A DNA stretch of 64,000 bases from Giardia intestinalis (lineage: Eukaryota): NCBI GenBank assembly GCA_000002435.2, contig CM018793.1; one strand, written 5' to 3'. Of this stretch, positions 15,201 to 44,786 are shown piece after piece (the first letter of the stretch is position 1; the number at the start of each line of letters is the position of its first letter). A program made the position numbers and the translations under genes. The notes under the pieces were generated by a model. It did no database searches. It was given only the letters and a program-made list of their open reading frames with translations, and had not been told where the DNA came from.

Positions 15201-18200
15201 CGCAGACCACCGTTCCAGGCGAGCGTCCTATCTCGTAGCACCCCCCGGCGTGCAGGAAGAACCTTGGCCCGCAGCGTGTGCACGACGTGGGGCTTGGTGT
15301 GGCAGCGACACATTGCGATCTGATTGCCCTAGTGTTAGCCAATGCAACGCACGAGCCGTCGATCGGGACTTCCCCGTCTCGCTTGCATTGCTTGCAGATC
15401 GTGTACGGGCCCAGCGTAGCCTGGTGCTGGCTGTCACATATGGCAGTCCCAGCTGTTGCGCCTTTAGCATAGCAGCCCCCATAGTAGAGGAGGTGCGTGT
15501 CCTTGCAAGCCGCACACGTCCCGCTGGATGGGGTTGTACGGATGCAAGCGTCGTCATTTGCCTTGCACTTTCCGTCGATGATAACGCTGCTTAATAGCGC
15601 ACAGCGGCTGCATGCGAGCGTGCCGTTGACATTGCAGTATCCTGCAGCACAGGACGTGGGAAGCAATCCAACGGGGCATTCCTCAGTACATATGTTATTC
15701 CTCAGTGCAAATCTATCCTTGCAGACCTTACACCCAGTACTATCGCACTTCTTACACCCGGGTGTGCATGCAACACACGAGTTCCCACTGGCATAGTACC
15801 CATCCTGGCAAGAGGCGCAGGTATTTGCCGCATCGCACGTCAAGCAGTGGAGCACGCTGCAAGCAACACACTTTCCGGCCGCAAGATAGAAGCCGTCTGC
15901 GCATCCCGTGCATTTTGTTGCACTATCCTGGCACGTCTTGCAGCTCTTATCACACATCTGACAGAACTCAGCAGACTCATACATCCCATCCGGACACTTA
16001 GTAAAGCATGCAACCGTTGCAGGACTTCCATCCTTGGTTATCTGGAATGACTTAACACCCTGTTTGCACGACCTGCAGATGCCATCTCCCTTGACGGTGC
16101 AGTCATCCGAGACCTTGCACTCCCCATCAACGGGCACCTCATCCTTCTGCTTACACTTCGCACAAAACGACCCTGCGCCCGATGTCACGACATCCTGGGC
16201 GTCGCAGATGTCCCCCGCCTCGAACGACCCCGCTTCATAGCAGCCACCCTTGTACTTGATGTATCTGTGGGTGCAGTATTTGCAGGTGCCATTAGCTTGT
16301 TTATATTGTATGCACACGCCTGCGGCCACTGAAGCACACACGCCGTTGACTGGGCCCTCGGCGTCAGCAGCGCACTGGGAGCAGTAGAACGTGCCCAGGA
16401 CATCACACTTGTCCTTTCTGCACCTGTGCTCCTTGGGGTCTGCCTCTGCCTCAACGCACGTTTGCACGCACTCCGTTCCCCCGTTCATTGGTCTGTAGAA
16501 CTGCTCGCAGGCAACACAGACCAGGAGTCCGTTGGAAACCTTGCAGCTCTTGCAGTGGGGTATGCCCTTCAGCGTGTCGCTGTTCTCTGTGCACGGAACA
16601 CACGAGTCGCTGATACTTGAGCGGTCGGGGGGCGCGTAGTATCCCTCTTTACAAATATCACAGATCCCATTGTCAGATCCGATGCTTTTGCATAGTATAG
16701 TTCCGGGAGCAAGGTCTGCTGAGACACAACTCCCTTTAAGCAGAAAATGATTGTCAACACAATAATAACATCGTCCAGTAGGCACACGGGCCAAAACGCA
16801 CGGAGAAAGCTTGCTGTCAGACATAGGAATGCAGTGCCCATTAACTGGCAGATCAGATAAAATGCTACATCGGAAGCAATACGTCACGCCATCCATTACA
16901 GCATACTCGCCACAAATGGCGTTTCCTGGATAGGTCTTTGGATTATAGCAACCATTCTTATAATAAAAGAATAATCCTGCGCATCCAGTGCATGTACCAT
17001 TTGGCACACCCGACTTCTTACATATATTCTCCTTATCGACACTAGTACATTTGCCATCGATAAGAGCATCTGTATTCAACGCGCACTTTGAACAAAAGGT
17101 AGCTCCAAGCACATTACAAAAATCAACGGCACACTGACCTGATCTAGGTTGTAGCGAGTCAGTCGGGAGAGGGCAGCTTTCCTCGCATACACCGTTAACC
17201 AATAAATAGCGATCTAGACAGCTTGTGCAGTGTCCTGGACCAGAGATTAGGGGAGCTAAACACGTTCTACAAAAAGCTATACCGGTGTAGCCGAAAATTC
17301 CACCTACATCGCTACAGTGAATGCACGATTGAATCGTTGAGCTTCGAACAGGATTGAGATAATAAGTTGGTCCACATACTTCGCAAACGCCTGCTCTTGC
17401 TTTAGTGCATATCTGTGGATAAAATTCTGGTGTAAAGCAAACTGTACGGTGCAAGAAATATCCAGCTCCACAACCAGTGCACACTCCCTCTTTGCACGTA
17501 TTTCCATAAGTTTCGGTGGTGCAAGATCCGTTAATAGGATATTCTGTTTCGAGAGTGCATTTCTTACAATATGTAAATCCATAACCTGTAAGTGTGTGTT
17601 CCTTTTCACATATCGGTATTACTGGCTTAATCGTATTGTAACATCCACCGTAGTAGAGAAGATAGCCTTTTGAGCATCTCCGGCATCTACCGCCCTCCAT
17701 AACAGCACACTCGGGAGCATCTTCCCGTAGAGGCCGGCAAACCCCATCTATGGGAACCTCACGTTCTATACTACACCTTTCGCAGAATGTCTTATCACGA
17801 ACAACACATCCTCCGTAAATGCAGCCCCCAGGCGTGAGTTCCTCCGTGCAAGCTTTAACACATGAGTCCTTACCTTCATTCTTTTGAAGCTGATAACTAT
17901 AAGCGCAACTATTGCAAACGTCCACGCCCCCATCACAGTTTACGCAGTACTTGATGTTACATGGTCTGCATTCTGATCCAACATGGGTATATCCAGAGGC
18001 ACAAACTGAACAAGTAGCTGTGTCGTCGACATCCTTACAAATACTGAGGCCGATGGGCGTTCCTTTTTCATAGCATCCTCCTTTGTAAGGAAAATACCGA
18101 GGTGGACACTCTGTGCAGCGGCCAGATACTACTTTGGCGCCCATTAAGGCAGATGTGCACTGTCCATTTATGGGGCACTCATTATCATTTGCGCAACAAG

Positions 18201-19812
18201 AACAAAGTGCAGACGAGAAAATGTTGCAATGATCAGACTTACATGACCCCGGAGCAAGACCGTTTGTCCAGCACGATATTTCGCAGTGATTTTCTGTTAG
18301 GAGATATCCCCTTTCGCAGACTGTGCATTGCGCTCGTTGGCCTCGTGGAAGAGGTAAGCATTTTGCACAGTGAGCTATGCCAGCGTTATCGTACTGAAGA
18401 AGTACATCATTACAATACTTGCACATACCTTTCCCCATCGAAAACACTTGAAAGAATATTTCTGGAGCACAAGAAGTACAATCATTCGCGTTAGGACCAA
18501 GGCATGAAGCACAATTTGAATGGCATGGAATACAATCTCCTCTGTTGCGAAAATAGTTGTCTACACACGCTTTGCATTTCCCAGCATTATCCACCTCGTT
18601 ACATATGACGTTTCCTGGAGCAGATTCTGGGGAATAACATCCACCTTGGTAAATGAAGTAATTCTTACCACAAGAGGTACACTTAATAGAGACAGGTGTT
18701 GGTAGACCGCCGGCTGAATCTCGACAACCAGAAGTTACAACTAGCGGATTATTGTATGGCACACATACTCCGTTGATTGGAACGAAACCAGGCGTACCAC
18801 ATTTCGCACAAAAGGTTGCACCCCTAATATCAGTAGTGTAGGCACATGCCTTAAGTCCTAGCTCAGTATCCACACGATAACATCCGCCTTGAAAAAGGAT
18901 GTATCCCTTTCCACAGTTATCACACATTCCCAACGAGATGGATATATGGAGACAAATATTCTGGTCATTAGAAGTGCAAACTCCGTTAATCGGTACTTCG
19001 GTGCCAAGAGAACAGTGGGCACAGAGTTTGTTCTCAAAAGCAGTACATCCATCTTCAGCACACTTTCCAGACTTGGCTATTTTACTTTTATCACAAGTGA
19101 GAATACATGTACGAGTCTGTGAATCATATGAATAGTTATCAATACAAAGAAGACACTCATTAGGCGTTGCACCCGTACACATCAAGCAATTGCTAGGGCA
19201 AGTAAGACACTGATTTCCAGCCAAATAATATTGTGCTTGACAAGAGAGGCATTTCAAAGAATCACTGGTACTCATTGTACAAGAGCGACAATTTTCTATA
19301 CCGTAAGGTTTATCTGAACACCTTTTACAGAGAGACCCATCAAGAAAACGATCCGGAGGACAACTCAGGCACTGATTTTCAGAACTTCCAGAACAAGAAC
19401 TGCAGTGAGCATGACAGGTCTTACAAGTCTGAGGAGTTGCTTGAGTGTCGAGATAGTAACCTAAAGAGCATATTTTGCAAAGATTCCTGGCTAGATCAAC
19501 GCAAATAAGATTTCCAGGACTATAAAGTATATTGTAACACCCGCCCTCATGAATGAAATAATTCTTTTCTACACATGAAGAACAGGTTTTAGCAGAGTTT
19601 TTAAGAGGCTTACCTGCCTCAGAAGCGCAGCCGGAGGCCACAGCCCTGGGGTCGTCGTACGGGATACAGAGTCCGTTTATAGGAACCTCACCAGGGGTGG
19701 CACACTCAGAACAATACCGGCCCTCTAAAATAGTGCATTTTCCTATAGCGCACTCTCCAGGTCGATTCCCATGGGTACATGAGAGTGCAAGTCCAAAAAT
19801 GATCGCCAGCAT
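12223..19812 (-). CDS. High-cysteine membrane protein (HCMP), 2529 aa. It has a signal peptide, dozens of CXXC/EGF-like modules, one C-terminal TM helix and a short cytoplasmic tail.
   Basis: N-terminal MLAIIFGLALSCTHG signal-like segment. Pervasive C-x2-C and GGCY motifs (e.g. CTSCGKNYFIYQGGCY). C-terminus GITLGVTVLVGGTIGLTFSLMASKHKSQASGLRPLTA (TM + tail). ATG at 19810-19812. The 3' ~4.4 kb is visibly GC-rich; the 5' ~3.1 kb is AT-richer. Confidence 0.85.
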   Translation of the reverse strand: MLAIIFGLALSCTHGNRPGECAIGKCTILEGRYCSECATPGEVPINGLCIPYDDPRAVASGCASEAGKPLKNSAKTCSSCVEKNYFIHEGGCYNILYSPGNLICVDLARNLCKICSLGYYLDTQATPQTCKTCHAHCSSCSGSSENQCLSCPPDRFLDGSLCKRCSDKPYGIENCRSCTMSTSDSLKCLSCQAQYYLAGNQCLTCPSNCLMCTGATPNECLLCIDNYSYDSQTRTCILTCDKSKIAKSGKCAEDGCTAFENKLCAHCSLGTEVPINGVCTSNDQNICLHISISLGMCDNCGKGYILFQGGCYRVDTELGLKACAYTTDIRGATFCAKCGTPGFVPINGVCVPYNNPLVVTSGCRDSAGGLPTPVSIKCTSCGKNYFIYQGGCYSPESAPGNVICNEVDNAGKCKACVDNYFRNRGDCIPCHSNCASCLGPNANDCTSCAPEIFFQVFSMGKGMCKYCNDVLLQYDNAGIAHCAKCLPLPRGQRAQCTVCERGYLLTENHCEISCWTNGLAPGSCKSDHCNIFSSALCSCCANDNECPINGQCTSALMGAKVVSGRCTECPPRYFPYKGGCYEKGTPIGLSICKDVDDTATCSVCASGYTHVGSECRPCNIKYCVNCDGGVDVCNSCAYSYQLQKNEGKDSCVKACTEELTPGGCIYGGCVVRDKTFCERCSIEREVPIDGVCRPLREDAPECAVMEGGRCRRCSKGYLLYYGGCYNTIKPVIPICEKEHTLTGYGFTYCKKCTLETEYPINGSCTTETYGNTCKEGVCTGCGAGYFLHRTVCFTPEFYPQICTKARAGVCEVCGPTYYLNPVRSSTIQSCIHCSDVGGIFGYTGIAFCRTCLAPLISGPGHCTSCLDRYLLVNGVCEESCPLPTDSLQPRSGQCAVDFCNVLGATFCSKCALNTDALIDGKCTSVDKENICKKSGVPNGTCTGCAGLFFYYKNGCYNPKTYPGNAICGEYAVMDGVTYCFRCSILSDLPVNGHCIPMSDSKLSPCVLARVPTGRCYYCVDNHFLLKGSCVSADLAPGTILCKSIGSDNGICDICKEGYYAPPDRSSISDSCVPCTENSDTLKGIPHCKSCKVSNGLLVCVACEQFYRPMNGGTECVQTCVEAEADPKEHRCRKDKCDVLGTFYCSQCAADAEGPVNGVCASVAAGVCIQYKQANGTCKYCTHRYIKYKGGCYEAGSFEAGDICDAQDVVTSGAGSFCAKCKQKDEVPVDGECKVSDDCTVKGDGICRSCKQGVKSFQITKDGSPATVACFTKCPDGMYESAEFCQMCDKSCKTCQDSATKCTGCADGFYLAAGKCVACSVLHCLTCDAANTCASCQDGYYASGNSCVACTPGCKKCDSTGCKVCKDRFALRNNICTEECPVGLLPTSCAAGYCNVNGTLACSRCALLSSVIIDGKCKANDDACIRTTPSSGTCAACKDTHLLYYGGCYAKGATAGTAICDSQHQATLGPYTICKQCKRDGEVPIDGSCVALANTRAIRSQCVAATPSPTSCTRCGPRFFLHAGGCYEIGRSPGTVVCAVAVDSAVAGVCTSCASGYYSTDLLDPTKESCILCNDTGATNGYTGVDGCTECYPSETPKRVICTRCKDKHIPSEDGSRCIQSCNDSRSESGNCKAGSCTAMGSLYCSRCALDDEWPINGACTGHDTDYVCEKGKGVCTGCLRGYMLYMGGCYDPAAIPGSGICRELLTVGRRTYCKQCNLAGEFPINGLCTKDVPDGVSCSSGLCVICPENYFFHEGGCYDITTTPGSGICEVLGTGRDAGTCRRCRPGYRHNKETLTCMSCAVSNCASCEIDVKYCTECIQPYTLTGVGAGAYCTKPCKRVGQDACSWGSCTVMDGSLCSQCASSDYVPIDGVCTLYPGEARSLAGPCVKDAKKGRCTACRGSYFLHQGGCYSAGEYPGTGICDERDAVVVDGQVVCGRCLIDGEVPLDGTCAEPKEGLICSKGVCSHCGDGMFLFEGACYTKERAPGTSICGDTTESTSGCTACKAGFSKTDKGCVRCSDPNCGACVDDPNTCTACRAGYYLQSTSCIACHPACKTCDGMGADKCKECAEGYFGTFTTPGLGACLACSDTSGRDSWVGVSGCRLCEAPKVAGPALCKDCLPGYKALSTGTEVTCHAVCPMTYYEAADSCIPCAIDNCATCTSTRCTSCVPEHIWNGEECVPKICPPQCLCREQSIACIGCNENAVEVRPTHSSASRCLLCNDAGAGGGWTGVDGCQRCRLADRVGPVVCLACESGRKALTLDGMLLCPRDCPTEGFWTSGSECIPCAPGCLRCTSATTCSACSQGYYSTQSSVSAPSDCRPCDDVTSQNGFTGIPHCAVCAADRARAGVTCHACAEGYGLSGGSCSPCTAAGCARCDGGVCTSCKRGWHLAGDRCLACPSPCAACSSAASCLACADRYFQATPLGGPRDCVPCDQTAPQGLRMAGIHGCGLCQAQAGSGAVLCLRCADGNLPLENYCGGSSVKRRLGPGAITGITLGVTVLVGGTIGLTFSLMASKHKSQASGLRPLTA

Positions 19813-19999: not shown

Positions 20000-20596
20000 G
20001 TGCTAATTTTGCATTGTATTATGTGCGCGGCAGACCGGGCAAGGGCGGGGGTCACGTGCCACGCCTGCGCGGAAGGCTACGGGCTCTCCGGGGGCTCGTG
20101 CAGCCCGTGCACCGCGGCCGGTTGCGCCCGTTGCGACGGGGGTGTCTGCACCTCCTGCAAGAGGGGCTGGCACCTGGCGGGCGACCGCTGCCTGGCATGC
20201 CCCTCTCCGTGCGCCGCCTGCTCGTCGGCAGCCAGCTGTCTGGCCTGTGCCGACAGGTACTTCCAGGCGACGCCCCTCGGAGGCCCCCGGGACTGTGTGC
20301 CCTGCGACCAGACGGCGCCCCAGGGGCTTCGGATGGCAGGCATCCACGGGTGCGGGCTCTGCCAGGCGCAGGCAGGGTCAGGCGCCGTCCTCTGCCTCCG
20401 TTGTGCGGACGGAAACCTCCCCCTGGAGAACTACTGCGGAGGCTCGTCGGTCAAGCGCCGCCTCGGCCCAGGCGCGATCACAGGGATCACCCTTGGCGTG
20501 ACCGTTCTTGTAGGCGGGACCATCGGGCTCACATTTAGTTTGATGGCATCCAAGCATAAATCTCAGGCCAGCGGGCTCCGGCCATTGACAGCTTGA
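20000..20596 (+). pseudogene. Detached copy of the HCMP C-terminal ~190 codons (cysteine modules + TM + ...KHKSQASGLRPLTA tail). It has no signal peptide and no upstream gene body. Probably a gene fragment created by the inverted duplication, but an ATG at 20000 abuts the shared AT-rich promoter region.
   Basis: Protein identical to the C-terminus of 12223-19812 from CAADRARAGVTCHACAEGY onward. The first 8 codons (MLILHCIM) are unique. Confidence 0.5.
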
Positions 20597-27638: not shown

Positions 27639-29684
27639 ATGGAGAATGACGAGCGGAAAGCCAGCCTGTCAAGCCTTTTGAGGGAATTAGAGGACAATGC
27701 AGCCCTCAGGCTAAGGTGCTTAGCTCTTGAGGAAGAGATCCAGCGGCTTAGTTTAGTCTTACAGAATACACAACAGGCAAATGATATCTTCTCTCCAAGA
27801 CTCAATGACACTAGCAATACTGCAAATATTCCATGTGGTCTCTGCACTAGCATGCTTCCAAAAGTAGCAGAATTGCAGGGAGTAGTCAACGTGCTAAATG
27901 TAGCCGTAAAGGAAGCCGCGGCGTCTAATGACACACCATCATACCGGATTCCATCAACACTAACAGAAAGCCTCAGAGAGGATATTAGAAATGCTTATCT
28001 TTGGCTCCAACGGATGCTGGAGGCACATTCAGAAGAAATCCAAGAAGATTGCAATCTGAAACAAATATCTATAGAGATACTTAAATTGCTTGCGCAGAGG
28101 GGGGAGCATAATAAGTTACTAGAAAACTACAAAGCCTTGGCTGCTGAAAATGCCGAACTTATGAAACGTATTACACAGCTAGAATGTAGAGACAGAGTAG
28201 GGACAGTAGGTGAAAGGTACGAGGAGGACAGCGAAAAAGTTATGCCAGCTGAATGTGACGTTAAGTTATTAAACGATCAGATAACCACTTTGACTCATCG
28301 CGTCGAAGCTTTAACATTTTCGAACAGGTCTCTTAAGAACGAGTTGCTAATTAAAACAAAAAGTGCATCAGCTTTAGAGTCTAAGCTTGAGAACTATATT
28401 GCCATACAGCAAAGCTATCTGGCTGTATGCGACAAGATAGAGGAGCTATGCGAGCGCACCGTTTACAGCAATAGAGAAGATGATGCCAATCTGAATAATA
28501 ATTTATTAGTTCACAATATTTGTAATACTCTGACAATCGTAGCAGATCAGCTATTTGAGATCTCTGCCCTATTCACTCAAACCAGCCCTGCAGAAATGCA
28601 GCCAGTCCTTCATCAACAACCCCATTCCTGGGGAGTAACTAGCATAATAGCCCGGTGTGCTCAGCTTAAGGATATTAACCAAAGGCTGCAAATAGAATTG
28701 GAAACAACAAAATATGAACAGTTGCATAAATTTAAGGAGCAACAGGAAATAATTGGTGCTAAAGAGAGGTATATAGAAGAGCTACTTACGAAATTATCAA
28801 TAGAAAATACTCTGTGTGCACATAGTACCGATTCCCATCAGTCACCCCTTTCAGACAGCATCGACGATGTAAAAAATATTGAAGATCTACAGAAATTTAT
28901 AGAACACTTAGAACACACAGAAAGATCTACGGCCACTTTGAGCATAAACTCTTTGAAGCAGATTTTGGCCGCCGCAAAGTCTAACTCTCTGATGGCTGAG
29001 AGTGTATTAACTAGCATATCGTCATTACGAAATGATTTACCCATAGATACGTTGAGAAATCTATCAGTAACTCTGTCAACCGGTATCCGGGATGGCACAG
29101 AGCATTCTCTATCCATTGTCACGACATCAGAAGGAACTAATACTCCAATACGTTTAACTGAGAAGGAATACCATACCCTAAAGGAAACGATTTCTGGCTT
29201 GACCCATTTATTGTTGTGCTCCTCTGATACCCTTGGGGATCAAAAAGTTGAAGAGGAGTGTGAAGCTGAAGGATGTGGTGAACGTGACTATGTACTCGAA
29301 AATAAGCAATCTCCTGGCTCAATAGAAGAAGAGTTGCCCTTGGAAGAGACAAGCAAGGTGGCCTTAAGTGAAGCTGAGAGTATATTGTTGGATAAAGGTA
29401 AAAGCGATATAGCAAGTGAAGATAAAGACACAAGTCCTCCAGAGCAGTGCTCTTCTGACTCTGGAAAAACCACTGAGAAAGGTAGCACAAGCAAACCAAC
29501 TATAATAATTAAATCCTTGAAAAAGCCTGCCCATCAGAAGCGAAAAATAAGTGTCTGTCTTTCATCACCAAGTTCAAATCAGAGCTCCCAGAAGACGATA
29601 GACTCAAATTCCGAGGATGAGTTCAGCAAAGAAAAGTCTACAACAGATAGATGGAGGGCCCTAGATACCGAAGATATATGGTAA
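27639..29684 (+). CDS. Hypothetical coiled-coil protein, 681 aa, with an acidic/Ser-rich C-terminus. No recognisable catalytic domain.
   Basis: Long ORF with heptad-like leucine spacing (LRLRCLALEEEIQRLSLVLQNTQQ...). Divergently arranged from the upstream 21.1 gene. Confidence 0.55.
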   Translation: MENDERKASLSSLLRELEDNAALRLRCLALEEEIQRLSLVLQNTQQANDIFSPRLNDTSNTANIPCGLCTSMLPKVAELQGVVNVLNVAVKEAAASNDTPSYRIPSTLTESLREDIRNAYLWLQRMLEAHSEEIQEDCNLKQISIEILKLLAQRGEHNKLLENYKALAAENAELMKRITQLECRDRVGTVGERYEEDSEKVMPAECDVKLLNDQITTLTHRVEALTFSNRSLKNELLIKTKSASALESKLENYIAIQQSYLAVCDKIEELCERTVYSNREDDANLNNNLLVHNICNTLTIVADQLFEISALFTQTSPAEMQPVLHQQPHSWGVTSIIARCAQLKDINQRLQIELETTKYEQLHKFKEQQEIIGAKERYIEELLTKLSIENTLCAHSTDSHQSPLSDSIDDVKNIEDLQKFIEHLEHTERSTATLSINSLKQILAAAKSNSLMAESVLTSISSLRNDLPIDTLRNLSVTLSTGIRDGTEHSLSIVTTSEGTNTPIRLTEKEYHTLKETISGLTHLLLCSSDTLGDQKVEEECEAEGCGERDYVLENKQSPGSIEEELPLEETSKVALSEAESILLDKGKSDIASEDKDTSPPEQCSSDSGKTTEKGSTSKPTIIIKSLKKPAHQKRKISVCLSSPSSNQSSQKTIDSNSEDEFSKEKSTTDRWRALDTEDIW

Positions 29685-29686
29685 CA

Positions 29687-32290
29687 TCATAGTATTTTAT
29701 TAGAAAACCTCATGTTTACGTAGTCACACGTTTCCTTGGTAAATTGATATCTCTTAGACAAGTATAAGACCCCTTCTAAATCCCCATCAGAGCAGAGCTG
29801 TACCACAAAGCTATGTAGAGCAGCCTGCAGAAGCCATTTGCGCGTCTCAGCGGATTCACCCGATACGTCCCGACTCAGCATAAGGTTGACTGCATCACCA
29901 TAAGCTTTTACACGCATCTCCACGTCTGTGCTAAAAAGACAGGTATGCTCATATGCCCTCGAAGGCATGGAGTACGCTTTGGTATAGTGTGTGAGTGGCC
30001 GCACCGATTCATTTAGGCGACATGCAGGGCCTTTATGTCCAGGTAGATCAGTGGCCAAGGGTGCTTCCGATTCACACTGCTCCTTAAAGGCGTCGCCAGG
30101 TGTGTCACTGTCAGATAGCGTTTGAGAGCTGTGGTTACTAGTATCAGCTACATTACTTACACCGGTGTTTATCAGTAGGTGAGACAGAGTTGAAGAAGCT
30201 TCATATAGAACGTCGAAAGCACCTTGTTGATGCAAGGATGGTTTAGCCCCGAAGCTCCTCTCTATAGGTCGTTGATGAGTTGAGCAAGAATTTGCTCTAG
30301 AAAGTAAGCCTTTCGGGACTTGACTCCACAAGTCCTTTACGCATCTTTTCGCAGCACTCTTCAGAATGTGATAATCTGGTTTGGGAGTGGTAGAAACAGT
30401 AACATTGAAAAGTTCTGTAGTTGCAGTAATAGAGTAGTGATCTGTATTAGGCTCATTCTGGATTTCATTCGCTAAAGGGTTGGACTGTTTCAATTGAAGT
30501 GTGATGGTGAGCTTTGTTTCAGATGTCAGTGAAAGGTTTTTGCGTAGCATTCGTAAATAGAGTTCTGTGATCAATGGAGACACAGATTTGTCTAAAGAAA
30601 TATCGTCTTGTAGAGAGTGCACTTGTCCAGGAAGAGGTCTAGTCAGTATGCTGAGGCGCCTTAATGCCTTTGAAGATAGCGTTTCTGTAGACTTTTTGTG
30701 TATCTGTTTGCTTTCCAAGGTGTTGAGGAAAAGCTTGCGAGCTCTAGGTTGAAGCCCTTCTGTTCTGACAGGAAAAAATCCTTTCGATGCGTCATCAGTG
30801 CGCCCCTTCAGCATGGAAATTAGCTGCTTCGCTTGGTCTACGCTAATTATTTGGCAGATATCTCCAATTTGTGCACTTAGAATCTCTCCACACTTGGTAA
30901 TTCCAAGTTGTTCAGCAAATTGCTGCTCTACCTCTGAAGAAAGGCCTGGAAGAAAAGACAGAGGTCTATTAATTAACAGTGTTCTACAGGTAGATGACGT
31001 AGCAGAGAATATTCCATTAGAACCGGCCAGCTTTGTGGCAATTTGAGCTGCAAAGAGGGAGTCACCAAATCCCAAGGAGCAATGCAAGCCAGTCTCTTGA
31101 AGAACACGCTGTTGCAGTTGTAACCCTAGTGCTAAGCAACTATTACCATTAGCTGCAGAAAGACTAACGTGGCCCGATAAATCTAGAACTGCCTCGTTGT
31201 AATTCATGGGCATGATAGCTTTGCTGAACTGGCCAAGAACTTTAAATAACTCCTGACCTTTAGTATTATACATTTTGGTATCATAGCTTAGAACCTGAGT
31301 AGTGGGACAGCGTTCAAAGGCCTCTCCTACCGTCATACCAGATTCAATTCCCATTTGCTTGGCAGCCTTGGTACAGTCCAGAATAATAGCTCCATCGTTG
31401 GCTTCCTTGCTATCAAATTGGTTGGCAATAATAACGGGTGCTCCAATCAACCGTGTTCTTTCATTAGAAGACAGAAAGCTTAAGGAGGAAGATATGAAAA
31501 ATGCATCAACGTATACGTGACAAAGGACATACATGTTTTTTGAGTGTATTGGAGTGGGACCTGTTGGAGGGTGCGTTAAAAGATAGTCAGTCATTTCGAG
31601 TTTCCACGCAGACATCTGCTGATCAAAATGTTGCTTTTTGCATACAATTGGAGTTGCCCTATATGTATTTGTGACGCCGACATTTTTGTATTTAATGGAT
31701 GGGCCTCCTATGAACGATCCGCTCATCAATCTGGATCTTGGGCGCAGAAAACGCCATTGCAATAGACTCTTAGCCACTCGCATCCTTCCCTCTCTAGTAC
31801 ATTGATAGTAGTCCGCTTTGTTGAGAAACTCCTCTGGGGAAGACGGAAGCTTTTCATTTAGTAACGCCTCAATGGCCTGCAACCTAGTAACGGCTGCAGA
31901 CTCGAAATATGCATCTGGCGACTCGTCATGATTTATTGTTTCGAACTGAGCACTCTCAACTAACCGTTGCTGCGAATGACTATCGGTAGCGAAATAGTTA
32001 CGCTCGTCTAAACGCTTGTTTGAATTGAAGCAATCTATAATCCATCGAGGATGAACAACATGAATTCCAGCATCATCTATATTCCACTGTGGAGTCCTTA
32101 CTGGATCTAAAATCACGTGTGTGACAGCTGAGCTCATCTTGAAGACACAGCGTGCCCCGGCCCTAGTAGCAAGAACTCGAAGCCTGAGGGGCGAGGGAGT
32201 TGTGGGTCCCTTGCAGTAAATAGTGCAGTTGCTGAGAGGAAGATCTGCGGTGTGCAATGGTTGAGCTCGCAACAATAATCGATAGCTCAT
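29687..32290 (-). CDS. REV1: REV1-like protein: N-terminal BRCT domain followed by a Y-family (UmuC/DinB/Rev1) DNA polymerase core.
   Basis: BRCT-like THVILDPVRTPQWNIDDAGIHVVHPRWIIDCFNSNKRL (cf. human REV1 THIIATNLP...VIRPEWIVESIKAGRLL). Y-family motif I YVLCHVYVDAFFISS (cf. IMHVDMDCFFVSV). ILDCTKAAKQMGIESGMTVGEAFERCP (cf. IASCSYEARQLGIKNGMFFGHAKQLCP). Motif III MNYNEAVLDLSG (cf. SCDEALVDIT). Confidence 0.7.
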   Translation of the reverse strand: MSYRLLLRAQPLHTADLPLSNCTIYCKGPTTPSPLRLRVLATRAGARCVFKMSSAVTHVILDPVRTPQWNIDDAGIHVVHPRWIIDCFNSNKRLDERNYFATDSHSQQRLVESAQFETINHDESPDAYFESAAVTRLQAIEALLNEKLPSSPEEFLNKADYYQCTREGRMRVAKSLLQWRFLRPRSRLMSGSFIGGPSIKYKNVGVTNTYRATPIVCKKQHFDQQMSAWKLEMTDYLLTHPPTGPTPIHSKNMYVLCHVYVDAFFISSSLSFLSSNERTRLIGAPVIIANQFDSKEANDGAIILDCTKAAKQMGIESGMTVGEAFERCPTTQVLSYDTKMYNTKGQELFKVLGQFSKAIMPMNYNEAVLDLSGHVSLSAANGNSCLALGLQLQQRVLQETGLHCSLGFGDSLFAAQIATKLAGSNGIFSATSSTCRTLLINRPLSFLPGLSSEVEQQFAEQLGITKCGEILSAQIGDICQIISVDQAKQLISMLKGRTDDASKGFFPVRTEGLQPRARKLFLNTLESKQIHKKSTETLSSKALRRLSILTRPLPGQVHSLQDDISLDKSVSPLITELYLRMLRKNLSLTSETKLTITLQLKQSNPLANEIQNEPNTDHYSITATTELFNVTVSTTPKPDYHILKSAAKRCVKDLWSQVPKGLLSRANSCSTHQRPIERSFGAKPSLHQQGAFDVLYEASSTLSHLLINTGVSNVADTSNHSSQTLSDSDTPGDAFKEQCESEAPLATDLPGHKGPACRLNESVRPLTHYTKAYSMPSRAYEHTCLFSTDVEMRVKAYGDAVNLMLSRDVSGESAETRKWLLQAALHSFVVQLCSDGDLEGVLYLSKRYQFTKETCDYVNMRFSNKIL

Positions 32291-32439: not shown

Positions 32440-33066
32440 ATGATACAGCTGAGTACTGCCGTTCTTGGCCTATGGGGATTTATCAAGGATCTGCCAGAAT
32501 ATTACAAGACCGTTTCCTTTAAGGACCCCCTCTGCGCCGTCATACTCAGCATACACGCAGTGATGATCGTAGGGCTTATATTGTCAATGAAGTCAGCTCT
32601 AGGGTCCTTGGTGATTATATTCATCCTCCTGGGTTTCTCTTATCTCACGTCTTGGATAGACGAATTCCTGCGCAGCAACGTGGCTCTACTTTTGGAGAAA
32701 AAGTACATTTCAACAGACTACTTCTTTGTCAAAGGGAAGTTCGTAGCGGCTGTTTGGACCGTGCCAATCTTCTTTTACACGGTATTTTTCTCGTTGTGTC
32801 TCATCTTAACACTCTTGAAGGAGATATTACAAGAGTGTAGGAAAAGAACTAGCAAGGCTGGATCCTCGCGCAACTCAAGGCACGAGGAAACAGAGGGTGA
32901 AATGAGCGGTTCACGCACCACGGAGAAGAGCGCAGCAAATAATATACATATGCATGGCTCAACGTCCTCTCCTAATGAACATAGTAGACACGACAAGCAT
33001 CATGGTGGACATAACAAGCACTACGCCGGACACGGGACACATGCCAATCATAAGCATGGAAAGTAA
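32440..33066 (+). CDS. Hypothetical polytopic membrane protein with a His-rich C-terminal tail (HDKHHGGHNKHYAGHGTHANHKHGK), 208 aa.
   Basis: Three to four hydrophobic helices (ILSIHAVMIVGLILS; LVIIFILLGFSYLTSW; VPIFFYTVFFSLCLILTLL). Tail with ~11 His in 40 aa. Confidence 0.45.
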   Translation: MIQLSTAVLGLWGFIKDLPEYYKTVSFKDPLCAVILSIHAVMIVGLILSMKSALGSLVIIFILLGFSYLTSWIDEFLRSNVALLLEKKYISTDYFFVKGKFVAAVWTVPIFFYTVFFSLCLILTLLKEILQECRKRTSKAGSSRNSRHEETEGEMSGSRTTEKSAANNIHMHGSTSSPNEHSRHDKHHGGHNKHYAGHGTHANHKHGK

Positions 33067-42062: not shown

Positions 42063-44786
42063 CTATATCGACTTGGAGGGAATGAGCGTCATAGTACTGG
42101 GGGACGCATCGATGCGTCTGCCCCTAAAAATGAACCACCAGCAAAGGAAACCGACCAAGGCACCGATGGCGACCATAGCGACGGAGATTTCCATAATGGT
42201 CCTCATGGAGAGGCTGCTCTTGTTCGTGCTTCTGCCAGTACTGTTGCCATCTTTCATGAGGTAGCAGAGGACGGAGCCAGTATTGCTACCAATAGGAGGG
42301 ACACAGTTTAAGCAACCCTTGACACTAGTGATTGCATTGCCATCAGTTCCACTGTTACTTGTGCATTTCACGCATTTATTGTCAGTGGTTTTGTAATACC
42401 CTGCTAAGCAATCTGTGCAGGTTTCCTTACTACCCGCACACTTCACACATCCTTCAGTACACGCCGGACATTTTCCTCCAGCTGGGCTTTGTCCATTGGC
42501 ACACGTTTGGCATTGTCCCTTATTCTGTGCAGCCGTACATACAGAGCTACCAGGAAGCTTCTGTGTGTTGTAGCATCCGCCCGATAACAGAGCGTAGTTT
42601 GCTCCACACTCAGTGCATTTCCCGCCACTTGCCTTACATCCGGAGGCATCCCTCGCTGTTGCAGGTATGGATGTGCAGACGCCGTCGACTGGGGCGTACC
42701 CCTCCTCGCACTGATCGCAGTACTTCGAGCCTCCGACGTTCAGTGAGCAGCCGTCGGCCTTGCAGTGGGCCATAAAGTCTCCCGTGCACTCTTTTATGCA
42801 CGTTCCTGTGTCATCAGATGACCGACTCAGCACATACCCCGGATAGCAGGCCGTACACGACGTTTCTGCGTTAGTACTACAGCTTGCGCATGTATTGTGA
42901 CAGGAAGCGCAAATGCCGGTACTGTCACGATTATCGGGATATGTGCCGGCAGGGCACTCCTCCAGACATGCATCATTAAGGGGGCTCAGTCTTTTGGTCT
43001 CACACCCAGAGCACGTAACTATTGGACCTGCTCTTGCAGACGCTGCCTTGAGAGAGCACTTTGCACAGTCGGCTATGCCACCATTAGCAGTATCGCTGCA
43101 CTTAGCGCACACCTTCTTGCCCTGTGCATCGGTCGTGGGGAAGAATCCATCCTTACACTCCTCTGCACTGACACAGCTGGGTGTCTCACCAGCTTTGAAG
43201 TAGAGCCCGTCCTTACACTCTTCACATATATTATCCACCACACAGCTCTTGCAGTTGGTGTCAGAGCACAGCACACACCCACTGCCACCCTTGTTGGGCA
43301 CCTTACTATTGTCACAGGAGGTACAGACAGCGGGGGTCATACCACCATCAGATGGAGCTGTCGGGGCCTTACATTGTGAGCAGCCCTCGACCCCCACATA
43401 TGCCTTAGCAGTACCTTGAGGATCTACTAGTGTGCCTAGAGGATTGCCACAAGCTAGCACAGACTGATCAGTAGCCTGTGCCTCTGGTACTACGAAGTAC
43501 TTATTACTTGCCGCTTCTGTGCATATCCCACTACTATCTGCTTTCTTGCACATATGACTACCTGGTACTTGACCAACCTTATAACAGCCATTCATGTACA
43601 AGAAGTAATCAGCAGTACACTGTGTGCATGTATGACTGTCACAAGTATTAGCTCCCTTCTTACCACTATCACTAGTGCATATACCATCTATAGGAGCTTG
43701 TGAACTATCTCCACAATAGGAACAGTAGTGCTTTGCATTGCCCTTATCATCTATTATCATGGCATCGCAGGCACCAGAAGTACCACCACAAGCCGTGGGG
43801 TCCTCGCAGGTCTTCACACATGTATAGTCATCATTTGCATCTTCATTGGACTGCTTCTTATAGTTGGGCTTACAGTCAGTGCACTTGAACCCATTATTGT
43901 TAGAACATAGACTACAGCCTTCGTGGCCCCCATTGGTTGTATCACTACAAGCAACGCACTTCTTCCCCTGTGGATCTGTAGTAGTTACCAAGAAGTATCC
44001 CGGCATGCATGTATCACACTTATTTGGATCACCAGCAACAGAACATGTGGCACAGTTATCACCACAAGCATCACAAGCTGTATCACTAGTCTTAAAGAAG
44101 CCCGGAAGGCACTTAGTGCATTGTTGTGCTGCAGTACAGGTTGCACAATTAGGAACTCCCTTAGATTCATCACCACACAAAAGGCACGCAGTATCACCAT
44201 CTTTGAAATGATAATCATCTTGGCATCCAGAGCTCATATCAACACAGGTTGTTGTCCCATCCAGCTCTGTCTTCACCTTCTTACCGTTACAGGCACTGCA
44301 CACCGGCTTCTGTAGCTTTGCATCGTACGTGCAAGCAGTGCACTCTGGTATGCCCCCCTGATCTGCTGCACCGTTACAGGCTGTGCACTTCCCAGTGCTT
44401 GGGTCGGGGTACTTATCTCCATTACAACTGCTAGCCTCTACACAATTGTTCCCATCGAGATATTTCCCGCTCGCACAGAGAGTGCACTTAGTTGCGCCCT
44501 CACCGCTGCAAGTCAGACAAGCTTTATCGCAGACTTTGCATTCGTTGGTATTGGGTGATTTGTATGATCCGGCAGCACACTCTGTACATGTAACTACTCC
44601 TGCACTCTGTGGTGCCTGACACTGTGCGCAGTTGGCCACTCCCATGACCCCGTTTCTATCTGTAGTATCCCAGCACAAGATGCACTCGCTACCAGGCTTC
44701 GGTGTTGCATCAGGGTTCTGGAATATGTACTTGTTATCTGCCTTACAAGCAGTGCACAGTCCATCACTGGCTGCTGTGCATATCAC
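42063..44786 (-). CDS. High-cysteine membrane protein (HCMP/VSP-like), 907 aa as an ORF, with C-terminal TM + RGRRIDASPSTMTLIPSKSI tail. The ORF has no ATG near its 5' end (the tracked 'M' is GTG at 44784-44786, with an in-frame TAG just upstream at 44793-44795) and no signal peptide. Probably 5'-truncated or a pseudogene.
   Basis: CXXC/EGF-like modules throughout (CTACKADNKYIF; CAKCSDTANGG; CTECGANYALLSGGCY). TM helix AMVAIGALVGFLCWWFIF. First ATG only ~47 codons in. 5' end lies 90 bp from the VSP stop. Confidence 0.55.
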   Translation of the reverse strand: MICTAASDGLCTACKADNKYIFQNPDATPKPGSECILCWDTTDRNGVMGVANCAQCQAPQSAGVVTCTECAAGSYKSPNTNECKVCDKACLTCSGEGATKCTLCASGKYLDGNNCVEASSCNGDKYPDPSTGKCTACNGAADQGGIPECTACTYDAKLQKPVCSACNGKKVKTELDGTTTCVDMSSGCQDDYHFKDGDTACLLCGDESKGVPNCATCTAAQQCTKCLPGFFKTSDTACDACGDNCATCSVAGDPNKCDTCMPGYFLVTTTDPQGKKCVACSDTTNGGHEGCSLCSNNNGFKCTDCKPNYKKQSNEDANDDYTCVKTCEDPTACGGTSGACDAMIIDDKGNAKHYCSYCGDSSQAPIDGICTSDSGKKGANTCDSHTCTQCTADYFLYMNGCYKVGQVPGSHMCKKADSSGICTEAASNKYFVVPEAQATDQSVLACGNPLGTLVDPQGTAKAYVGVEGCSQCKAPTAPSDGGMTPAVCTSCDNSKVPNKGGSGCVLCSDTNCKSCVVDNICEECKDGLYFKAGETPSCVSAEECKDGFFPTTDAQGKKVCAKCSDTANGGIADCAKCSLKAASARAGPIVTCSGCETKRLSPLNDACLEECPAGTYPDNRDSTGICASCHNTCASCSTNAETSCTACYPGYVLSRSSDDTGTCIKECTGDFMAHCKADGCSLNVGGSKYCDQCEEGYAPVDGVCTSIPATARDASGCKASGGKCTECGANYALLSGGCYNTQKLPGSSVCTAAQNKGQCQTCANGQSPAGGKCPACTEGCVKCAGSKETCTDCLAGYYKTTDNKCVKCTSNSGTDGNAITSVKGCLNCVPPIGSNTGSVLCYLMKDGNSTGRSTNKSSLSMRTIMEISVAMVAIGALVGFLCWWFIFRGRRIDASPSTMTLIPSKSI

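What the first reader, a model, noticed from the sequence alone, without database searches (positions are those of the whole stretch)
29687..32290. REV1 homologue with substitutions at both canonical catalytic carboxylate positions (DxD to YxD; SxDE to NYNE)
Aligned by eye to human REV1 and Dpo4, motif I reads HVYVDAFF where Y-family polymerases have HVDMDCFF / VDFDYF; the first, catalytic Asp is Tyr. Motif III reads NYNEAVLD where they have SCDEALVD / SIDEAYLD, so the Asp of the catalytic D-E pair is Asn. If that alignment is right, this protein keeps the BRCT and polymerase fold but has probably lost dCMP-transferase activity. It would retain only REV1's scaffold role in translesion synthesis. 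That would be a natural 'separation-of-function' allele and is worth confirming.
Basis: partly seen in the sequence, partly recalled or inferred. Interest (0 to 1): 0.55.

Follow-up and report, generated by a model that had tools for sequence, protein, structure and literature searches.

The report
Giardia REV1 without its catalytic residues
The Giardia copy of the DNA-damage-tolerance protein REV1 keeps its polymerase fold and probable docking domains but has lost the residues needed to add nucleotides, so it probably works only as a scaffold, a natural version of the "catalytic-dead" mutants made in yeast.

Summary
The 867-aa ORF at 29687-32290 (-) is the Giardia intestinalis assemblage A REV1 orthologue, annotated only as "DNA damage repair protein". 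It has a BRCT domain, a Y-family core and a helical C-terminal domain.

Three independent alignments place Tyr260 on the motif I metal-binding Asp and Asn365 on the motif III Asp. Glu366 is kept. All 102 non-Giardia homologues aligned have Asp at both columns.

The triphosphate-binding residues are also replaced: Tyr to Lys308, Arg to Lys311 and Lys to Gly423.

All five other G. duodenalis-complex lineages sampled share this pattern, with Y/C/H at position 260. G. muris has lost motif I, the Phe-Phe pair and the whole little finger, but keeps Asp-Glu. The free-living relatives Carpediemonas and Kipferlia are canonical.

The gene is not decaying. ORFs are intact and dN/dS is 0.19 overall, 0.13 in the core and 0.07 in the C-terminal domain. 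The model's best structural matches are human and yeast REV1.

Best reading: a pseudo-polymerase REV1 retained as a scaffold or DNA-binding module. Loss of activity is inferred, not measured. Its partners (Pol zeta, PCNA) and any other Y-family polymerase in Giardia could not be checked. No report of this was found.

The parts
29687..32290 (-). Complete CDS of the Giardia REV1 orthologue (867 aa; stop codon at 29687-29689)
   Evidence: ORF list. It is 98% identical to the cluster that contains XP_001709271.1 / A8B5P1, 'DNA damage repair protein' of Giardia intestinalis.
31991..32242 (-). BRCT domain (aa 17-100)
31793..31828 (-). Possible displaced first half of the N-digit: F155-x5-Y161-Y162-x2-T165-R166
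   Evidence: Global MAFFT puts this over the canonical F-x3-YY-x2-S-R, where 95 of 96 sequences with a residue there have Arg. It is invariant in the G. duodenalis complex. HMMER local alignment does not recover it, and the model is low-confidence here.
31577..31615 (-). N-digit helix MSAWKLEMTDYLL (aa 226-238), matching the canonical LSxWKxEL
   Evidence: phmmer against yeast Rev1. HMM alignments.
30791..31645 (-). Polymerase-like core: N-digit helix, palm, fingers and thumb (aa 216-500)
31496..31522 (-). Motif I, CHVYVDAFF. Tyr260 replaces the metal-binding Asp (yeast D362). Asp262 and Phe264-Phe265 are kept.
   Evidence: Column 260 is Asp in 102 of 102 non-Giardia homologues. In Giardia it is Y/Y/Y/C/Y/H, and His in G. 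muris.
31349..31378 (-). Fingers motif DCTKAAKQMG, replacing the canonical SCNYxARxxG. The triphosphate contacts are lost: Tyr to Lys308 and Arg to Lys311.
   Evidence: Tyr in 102 of 102 and Arg in 101 of 102 non-Giardia homologues.
31181..31210 (-). Motif III, PMNYNEAVLD. Asn365 replaces the metal-binding Asp (yeast D467). Glu366 is kept. Asn363 replaces the conserved Ser.
   Evidence: Asp in 102 of 102 and Glu in 102 of 102 non-Giardia homologues. Asn365 is invariant in the six G. duodenalis-complex sequences.
31013..31039 (-). Palm motif ATKLAGSNG, replacing the canonical ATKxAKPNG. The triphosphate-binding Lys (yeast K525) becomes Gly423.
   Evidence: Lys in 102 of 102 non-Giardia homologues.
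30311..30673 (-). Little finger / polymerase-associated domain (about aa 540-660; strand-helix-strand-strand-helix)
   Evidence: AlphaFold2 secondary structure, pLDDT about 75-87 over aa 560-660. Foldseek alignments to REV1 ternary complexes span more than 500 columns. Pfam IMS_C does not match. The domain is absent from the G. muris orthologue.
29996..30310 (-). Poorly conserved, probably disordered linker (aa 661-765). No ubiquitin-binding motif was detected.
   Evidence: pLDDT below 50 over aa 664-786. dN/dS 0.35 for aa 691-765, the highest in the protein. No Pfam hit.
29690..29995 (-). C-terminal helical domain (aa 766-867), the probable equivalent of the REV1 C-terminal four-helix bundle
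   Evidence: Four helices predicted at aa 790-861, pLDDT 75-87. Lowest dN/dS in the protein, 0.07. The QLCxDGDLEG motif is shared with G. muris and with two catalytically canonical relatives from unidentified organisms, P0043 and P0044. hhalign to canonical REV1 C-terminal domains gives E 0.0011-0.0024, collinear, probability 12-21%. No Pfam or PDB sequence hit.

Best explanation
This is the orthologue of REV1 in Giardia intestinalis, and it has become a pseudo-polymerase. It still folds as BRCT, N-digit helix, palm, fingers, thumb, little finger and a C-terminal helical domain. Two of the three metal-binding carboxylates are gone (Asp to Tyr260 and Asp to Asn365). So are three of the side chains that hold the incoming dNTP triphosphate (Tyr to Lys308, Arg to Lys311, Lys to Gly423). 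It therefore most likely cannot catalyse nucleotidyl transfer.

The inferred function is REV1's non-catalytic role. It would be recruited to stalled replication through the BRCT domain and the DNA-binding polymerase-like body. It would then present the C-terminal domain as a docking platform for the polymerase that does the bypass synthesis, Pol zeta via Rev7 in other eukaryotes.

Shown here: orthology, fold, the substitutions, their conservation across Giardia, and purifying selection. Inferred: loss of activity, and the scaffold role and its partners.

The loss began before G. muris and the G. duodenalis complex split (motif I) and then continued separately. G. muris lost the Phe-Phe pair and the whole little finger. 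G. duodenalis lost the motif III Asp.
For: Identity:
- The window protein is 98% identical to the cluster that holds the G. intestinalis 'DNA damage repair protein'.
- The best non-Giardia hits are proteins named REV1 or deoxycytidyl transferase, from Carpediemonas, Kipferlia and fungi.
- The best PDB sequence hit is yeast Rev1, and the alignment includes the BRCT domain.

Substitutions: three concordant alignments. Non-Giardia homologues have Asp 102/102 at column 260, Asp 102/102 at 365, Tyr 102/102 at 308, Arg 101/102 at 311 and Lys 102/102 at 423.

Relaxed constraint exactly at the dead sites: position 260 is Y/C/H and position 308 is K/A/T among Giardia lineages.

Not a pseudogene: there are intact ORFs in six lineages, all starting at MSYRLLL. 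dN/dS against the assemblage-E-like copy is 0.185 (dS 0.57), with 0.127 for the core and 0.069 for the C-terminal domain.

The G. muris orthologue is one uninterrupted ORF. It lacks motif I and has only 56 aa where the window protein has aa 509-770, so it has no little finger.

Precedent: catalytically inactive yeast Rev1 still regulates Pol zeta (PMC13250573).
Against: No enzymatic measurement exists. Glu366, Asp262 and the steric-gate Phe264-Phe265 are retained, and a new invariant Asp305 sits near the nucleotide site. An unconventional metal site therefore cannot be formally excluded.

The core is under fairly strong purifying selection (dN/dS 0.13), which could also reflect some residual chemistry. 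An invariant Arg166 sits in a motif resembling the N-digit.

Homology of the C-terminal domain to the REV1 C-terminal domain is weak statistically: hhalign probability 12-21%, and no Pfam or PDB hit. No ubiquitin-binding motif was detected.

Whether Giardia encodes Rev3, Rev7 or any other Y-family polymerase could not be tested with these tools.
Confidence: 0.75

Rival explanations
1. The protein is still an active nucleotidyl transferase. It would use a rearranged metal site (Asp262, Glu366, Asn365, the new Asp305) and Lys308/Lys311 for the triphosphate.
For: Glu366, Asp262, Phe264-Phe265 and His258 are invariant. Asp305, Lys311 and Asn365 are also invariant within the G. duodenalis complex. 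Core dN/dS is 0.13. A possible N-digit Arg166 is conserved.
Against: The Asp at column 260 is a ligand of both metals in Y-family polymerases (established knowledge). Here it is Tyr, Cys or His in different lineages, so no single chemistry is conserved. The Lys that binds the triphosphate is Gly. G. muris lacks motif I, the Phe-Phe pair and the little finger altogether. No homologue among the 102 compared tolerates any of these changes.
Confidence: 0.07
2. The polymerase-like body has taken on a different job, such as sensing DNA structures or lesions, or organising a non-TLS complex. The REV1-type scaffold role would then be lost or secondary.
For: C-terminal domain homology is only weakly supported, and no ubiquitin-binding motif was found. 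There is a Giardia-specific conserved block at aa 130-182 and an insertion of about 57 aa. The protein evolves fast overall: 80% identity between assemblage A and the assemblage-E-like copy, and 65% between A and B.
Against: The BRCT domain and the C-terminal domain, the parts used for recruitment and docking in canonical REV1, are the most constrained together with the core. The C-terminal motif QLCxDGDLEG is shared with relatives that are otherwise canonical REV1.
Confidence: 0.13
3. The gene is a decaying pseudogene, or the substitutions are assembly or sequencing errors.
For: Catalytic motifs are degraded. Some automated gene calls are truncated at Met52.
Against: There are full-length intact ORFs in six G. 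duodenalis-complex lineages and in G. muris, in conserved gene order next to TMEM18. dN/dS is 0.16-0.20 in every pairwise comparison. The same substitutions appear in independent assemblies.
Confidence: 0.02
4. It is not a REV1 orthologue but another Y-family lineage (DinB/Pol kappa-like) that acquired a BRCT domain.
Against: The N-terminal BRCT aligns specifically to the REV1 BRCT. The LSxWKxEL helix of the N-digit is present. Nearly all of the best 150 HMMER hits carry the REV1-type SRLHHLS N-digit, a few being shorter proteins without it, and the named ones are REV1. The nearest relatives, P0043 and P0044, share both the LLxxxPxGPxP and QLCxDGDLEG motifs and are canonical REV1 in their active sites.
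Confidence: 0.03

Closest known systems
Eukaryotic REV1 (yeast Rev1, human REV1): Y-family deoxycytidyl transferase and translesion-synthesis scaffold
   Same: The domain order is the same: BRCT, N-digit helix, palm/fingers/thumb, little finger, disordered linker, C-terminal helical domain. It gives the best sequence and structure matches. Glu366, Asp262 and Phe264-Phe265 are conserved.
   Different: The metal-binding Asp of motif I is Tyr and that of motif III is Asn. The triphosphate contacts Tyr, Arg and Lys are Lys, Lys and Gly. The SRL of the N-digit is not in its canonical place. There is an insertion of about 57 aa. No ubiquitin-binding motifs were detected. The C-terminal domain is too diverged for Pfam REV1_C.
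Engineered catalytic-dead Rev1 (yeast rev1 D467A/E468A and equivalents)
   Same: The same catalytic positions are disabled while the BRCT domain, the body and the C-terminal domain remain. In yeast such a protein still regulates Pol zeta (PMC13250573). From general knowledge of the field, it also still supports most Pol zeta-dependent bypass.
   Different: Here the state is natural, fixed in a whole genus, and accompanied by loss of the dNTP-binding residues. In G. muris the little finger is lost as well.
REV1 of free-living fornicate relatives (Carpediemonas membranifera KAG9391686.1, Kipferlia bialata GIQ83870.1)
   Same: They are the closest named relatives outside Giardia and share a similar C-terminal motif.
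   Different: They keep HxDxDCFF, S-x-D-E, NYxAR and AKPxG intact.
Pseudoenzymes in general (for example pseudokinases), and inactive polymerase-fold subunits such as the Pol epsilon C-terminal half
   Same: The fold is retained under selection after loss of the catalytic residues, and is used for binding or scaffolding.
   Different: It is a different fold family. No Y-family example was found in the literature searched.

Membership tests
Y-family DNA polymerase (fold) | Palm, fingers and thumb of the IMS/UmuC type plus a little finger | tested here: met
Y-family DNA polymerase (enzyme) | Three metal-binding carboxylates: the Asp of motif I and the Asp-Glu of motif III | tested here: not met
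   The residues are Tyr260, Asn365 and Glu366. Of 102 non-Giardia homologues, 102 have Asp, Asp and Glu.
Y-family DNA polymerase (enzyme) | Triphosphate-binding Tyr and Arg in the fingers and Lys in the palm (yeast Rev1 Y405, R408, K525) | tested here: not met
   The residues are Lys308, Lys311 and Gly423. The homologues have Tyr 102/102, Arg 101/102 and Lys 102/102.
REV1 (orthologous group) | N-terminal BRCT domain ahead of the polymerase core | tested here: met
REV1 (orthologous group) | Closest relatives by sequence are REV1 proteins | tested here: met
   Full HMMER search: nearly all of the best 150 hits carry the REV1-type N-digit, and the named ones are REV1 or deoxycytidyl transferase.
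REV1 (deoxycytidyl transferase mechanism) | N-digit with Ser-Arg-Leu. The Arg pairs with the incoming dCTP and the Leu evicts the template G. | tested here: inconclusive
   The helix LSxWKxEL is present at aa 226-238. In the adjacent register the Arg position is His or Gln. Global MAFFT instead aligns the Arg with the invariant Arg166 in F-x5-YY-x2-T-R, about 57 aa upstream. The model is low-confidence there.
REV1 (scaffold) | C-terminal four-helix bundle that binds Rev7 and the REV1-interacting regions of other polymerases | tested here: inconclusive
   Four helices are predicted at aa 790-861 with pLDDT 75-87. The domain is strongly constrained (dN/dS 0.07). hhalign to canonical C-terminal domains is collinear but weak, E 0.0011-0.0024 and probability 12-21%. 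No Pfam or PDB sequence hit. Binding was not testable.
REV1 (scaffold) | Ubiquitin-binding motifs between the little finger and the C-terminal domain | tested here: inconclusive
   No Pfam UBM hit at E up to 1. The linker at aa 661-765 is poorly conserved apart from a short FKE-x-CE-x-E-x-PL-x-T block. Such short motifs are easily missed.
REV1-Pol zeta translesion-synthesis system | Presence of the partners Rev3, Rev7 and PCNA in the same genome | not testable with these tools
   The Giardia genome outside this 64-kb window is not searchable here. The literature searches gave nothing specific.

The most novel reading that the evidence does not exclude
The genus Giardia has given up Y-family catalysis altogether and keeps REV1 purely as an adaptor. 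The G. muris protein (BRCT, remnant palm/fingers/thumb and C-terminal domain, with no little finger) would then define the minimal REV1 scaffold that evolution tolerates. That would make Giardia a natural system in which all lesion bypass depends on a scaffold-only REV1 plus a B-family polymerase, or on recombination.
Probability: 0.35. Interest if true: 0.6.

Novelty: new variant of a known kind. Interest (0 to 1): 0.5.

Why it matters
Genetics in yeast, chicken and mammalian cells has long indicated that REV1's scaffold role matters more than its dCMP-transferase activity. That evidence rests on engineered mutants.

A whole parasite genus has discarded the catalytic and dNTP-binding residues. 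In one species it has also discarded the little finger. Meanwhile it has kept the BRCT domain, the body and the C-terminal domain under purifying selection. This is an independent evolutionary test of the same idea.

It also shows which parts of REV1 are dispensable in nature. It warns against counting this gene as an active translesion polymerase in inventories of Giardia DNA repair. Finally, it bears on how Giardia tolerates DNA damage, including damage from the DNA-damaging drug metronidazole.

Tried and rejected
- Word-indexed protein searches returned only Giardia orthologues and two DinB-like proteins. The full HMMER scan was needed to reach other REV1s.
- The first AlphaFold2 run with 8 sequences was poor outside the core (mean pLDDT 45.8). 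It was replaced by the 109-sequence run.
- Pfam on the isolated C-terminal domain and on the little-finger region gave no relevant hit.
- I first concluded that the N-digit Arg was lost, from an alignment restricted to the 85 residues upstream of motif I. I withdrew this when the global alignment showed a candidate Arg166 further upstream. HMMER does not settle the matter.
- The pseudogene and sequencing-error explanations were rejected on ORF integrity, synteny and dN/dS.
- Literature searches for Giardia REV1, Giardia translesion polymerases, Giardia Rev3/Rev7 and natural catalytic-dead REV1 found no description of these substitutions. One preprint figure legend flags 'Giardia Rev1-like proteins' (10.1101/2025.09.02.673565), but its held supplement does not mention Giardia.
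- The organisms behind the nearest canonical relatives, P0043 and P0044, could not be identified.
Full report
**What is there.** The interval 29687-32290 holds one uninterrupted 867-codon ORF on the minus strand. The window is Giardia intestinalis. The protein is 98% identical to a cluster that contains XP_001709271.1 / A8B5P1, 'DNA damage repair protein' of G. intestinalis WB. The neighbouring ORFs are VSP-family and ankyrin-repeat proteins typical of Giardia. Pfam finds a Y-family polymerase core (IMS, aa 259-420, E 2.6e-32) preceded by a BRCT domain (aa 17-88, E 8.7e-9). The best PDB sequence match is yeast Rev1 (8tlq_B), over both the BRCT domain and the core.

**Checking the observation.**
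- phmmer puts HVYVDAFF over yeast HIDFDCFF and MNYNEAV over ISIDEAV. In yeast numbering this is D362 to Tyr260, D364 = Asp262, D467 to Asn365 and E468 = Glu366.
- A full HMMER scan of 1.84 billion representative proteins gave 3796 hits. I aligned the best ones with MAFFT. Among 102 non-Giardia sequences, column 260 is Asp in 102, column 365 is Asp in 102 and column 366 is Glu in 102.
- An HMM built only from the non-Giardia sequences aligns the window protein in the same register, with maximal posterior probability in both motifs.

The codons are TAC (31511-31513) and AAC (31196-31198).

Using the yeast numbering:
- The fingers motif SCNYxAR is DCTKAAK here. Ser402 is Asp305, Tyr405 is Lys308 and Arg408 is Lys311.
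- The palm motif AKPNG is AGSNG here, so Lys525 is Gly423.
- In the 102 homologues these columns are Tyr 102/102, Arg 101/102 and Lys 102/102.

From established structural work on Rev1 and Dpo4, these side chains hold the triphosphate of the incoming nucleotide. The steric-gate Phe-Phe pair (Phe264-Phe265), His258 and Asp262 are retained.

**The N-digit is ambiguous.** The helix LSxWKxEL is clearly present (MSAWKLEMTDYLL, aa 226-238). Directly upstream, the canonical Ser-Arg-Leu is replaced: the Arg position is His or Gln in HMMER and L-INS-i alignments. The global alignment, however, matches the canonical F-x3-YY-x2-S-R to F155...Y161-Y162...T165-R166. That stretch is invariant in the G. duodenalis complex but sits about 57 residues upstream. 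The model has low confidence in this region. I leave the point open.

**Evolutionary pattern.** Five further lineages of the G. duodenalis complex were recovered. They are an assemblage-A variant, relatives of assemblage E (P15) and assemblage B (GS), and two more divergent lineages from runs ERR3333378 and ERR3333379. All have a full-length ORF starting MSYRLLL, in the same gene order next to a TMEM18 homologue.
- Asn365, Glu366, Lys311, Gly423 and Asp305 are invariant among them.
- Position 260 is Y/Y/Y/C/Y/H and position 308 is K/K/K/A/T/A. These positions look freed from constraint.
- G. muris (TNJ27705.1, one uninterrupted 1926-nt ORF) keeps Asp-Glu in motif III. It has a collapsed motif I (AHVHDAGLVV, with no Phe-Phe) and has lost Tyr, Arg and Lys as well.
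- The window's aa 509-770, which include the little finger, correspond to only 56 residues in G. muris.
- The closest named relatives outside Giardia (Carpediemonas REV1, Kipferlia) and two unidentified relatives, P0043 and P0044, have fully canonical motifs.

The loss therefore started in the Giardia stem with motif I and the triphosphate contacts. It then proceeded independently in the two branches.

**Not a pseudogene.** Nei-Gojobori dN/dS against the assemblage-E-like copy (dS 0.57, unsaturated) is:

| Region | dN/dS |
|---|---|
| Whole protein | 0.185 |
| Polymerase-like core (aa 216-500) | 0.127 |
| C-terminal domain (aa 766-867) | 0.069 |
| BRCT domain | 0.209 |
| Linker (aa 691-765) | 0.347 |

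The comparison with a second assemblage-A isolate gives the same picture (0.196 overall).

**Structure.** With 109 aligned sequences, AlphaFold2 gives pLDDT 74-95 for the BRCT domain and above 90 for most of aa 220-500. It gives about 75-87 for a little-finger-like unit within aa 540-660 and 75-87 for a helical C-terminal domain (helices 790-806, 814-834, 838-847 and 852-861).
- Motif I lies at the end of strand 256-261, and motif III on the hairpin 359-363 / 366-370, as in other Y-family palms.
- Foldseek's best PDB matches are human REV1 3gqc (E 4.9e-19) and yeast Rev1, then DinB/Dpo4 and Pol eta.

**C-terminal domain.** It has no Pfam or PDB sequence match. It does carry the motif QLCxDGDLEG, shared with G. 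muris and with P0043 and P0044, two relatives from unidentified organisms that are catalytically canonical REV1. hhalign against 58 canonical REV1 C-terminal domains aligns it in the expected register. One run gave E 0.0011 and probability 21% over 24 columns. A more permissive run gave E 0.0024 and probability 12%, collinear over 73 columns spanning all four helices. This is suggestive, not proof.

**Interpretation.** The most economical reading is a REV1 that has become a pseudo-polymerase and is maintained for non-catalytic roles: recruitment through the BRCT domain and the DNA-binding body, and docking through the C-terminal domain. Experimental work supports the plausibility, since a catalytically inactive yeast Rev1 still exerts its regulatory functions on Pol zeta (PMC13250573).

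Loss of activity and the identity of the partners are inferences. I could not test whether Giardia encodes Rev3, Rev7 or another Y-family polymerase. Only this window is available, it contains no other IMS-domain ORF among those scanned, and the literature searches were uninformative.

**Novelty.** The gene is annotated, and one preprint legend flags 'Giardia Rev1-like proteins'. I found no description of the catalytic substitutions or of a naturally catalytic-dead REV1. I class it as a new variant of a known kind. It is of moderate interest as a natural counterpart of the engineered separation-of-function mutants.

Noticed in passing
L008 4001-5926 (Giardia muris CM016927.1), compared with window 29981-30766 (aa 509-770): The G. 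muris REV1 orthologue is a single 641-aa ORF. It has only 56 residues where the window protein has 262, so it lacks the entire little finger and most of the linker. Its BRCT domain, remnant core and C-terminal domain are kept.
   Followed up: partly
window 31622-31828 (aa 155-223): A motif F155-x5-YY-x2-T-R166, invariant in the G. duodenalis complex, resembles the first half of the REV1 N-digit. It is separated from the LSxWK helix by an insertion of about 57 aa. Part of that insertion is highly conserved (EGRMRVAKSLLQWRFL) and part is variable. Its structure and role are unknown.
   Followed up: partly
window 32264-32290 (aa 1-9, MSYRLLLRA): The extreme N-terminus MSYRL is conserved from G. 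muris to G. intestinalis and is predicted helical. It lies just upstream of the BRCT domain, where yeast Rev1 carries the M1 helix that restrains Pol zeta (PMC13250573). Whether it is a shortened M1 motif was not tested.
   Followed up: no
window 29684-29689; also L001 4538/4540, L002 5529/5531, L003 3454/3457: The REV1 gene and the convergent 681-aa ORF (27639-29684, no Pfam match) end tail to tail, with only 1-2 nt between their stop codons. This arrangement is conserved in all orthologous loci examined.
   Followed up: partly
L003 848-1000 and L004 848-1000: Automated gene calls for several orthologues start at the internal Met52 and so cut off half of the BRCT domain (817- and 814-aa models). 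The upstream 51 codons are open and conserved. The deposited P15 and GS proteins are full length.
   Followed up: yes
window 12223-19812 (-), 42063-44786 (-), 44876-50641 (-), 20000-20596 (+): There are VSP-family (cysteine-rich surface protein) ORFs, including a 2529-aa giant with 15 VSP-profile stretches. They coincide with the two GC-rich stretches of the window (GC 0.58-0.64 against about 0.45 elsewhere) and, at 46-50 kb, with a strong AT skew.
   Followed up: no
window 32440-33066 (+): The divergently oriented neighbour is a TMEM18 homologue (Pfam E 4.8e-11) with a His/Gly/Lys-rich C-terminal tail (HDKHHGGHNKHYAGHGTHANHKHGK). It is syntenic with REV1 in all Giardia loci, including G. muris.
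   Followed up: no
window 30083-30121 (aa 724-736 region, FKE-x-CE-x-E-x-PL-x-T at aa 735-747: window 30050-30088): A short acidic block, FKEQCESEAPLAT, is conserved within an otherwise fast-evolving, disordered linker. It lies where canonical REV1 has its ubiquitin-binding motifs. It does not match the UBM profile, and its function is unknown.
   Followed up: no
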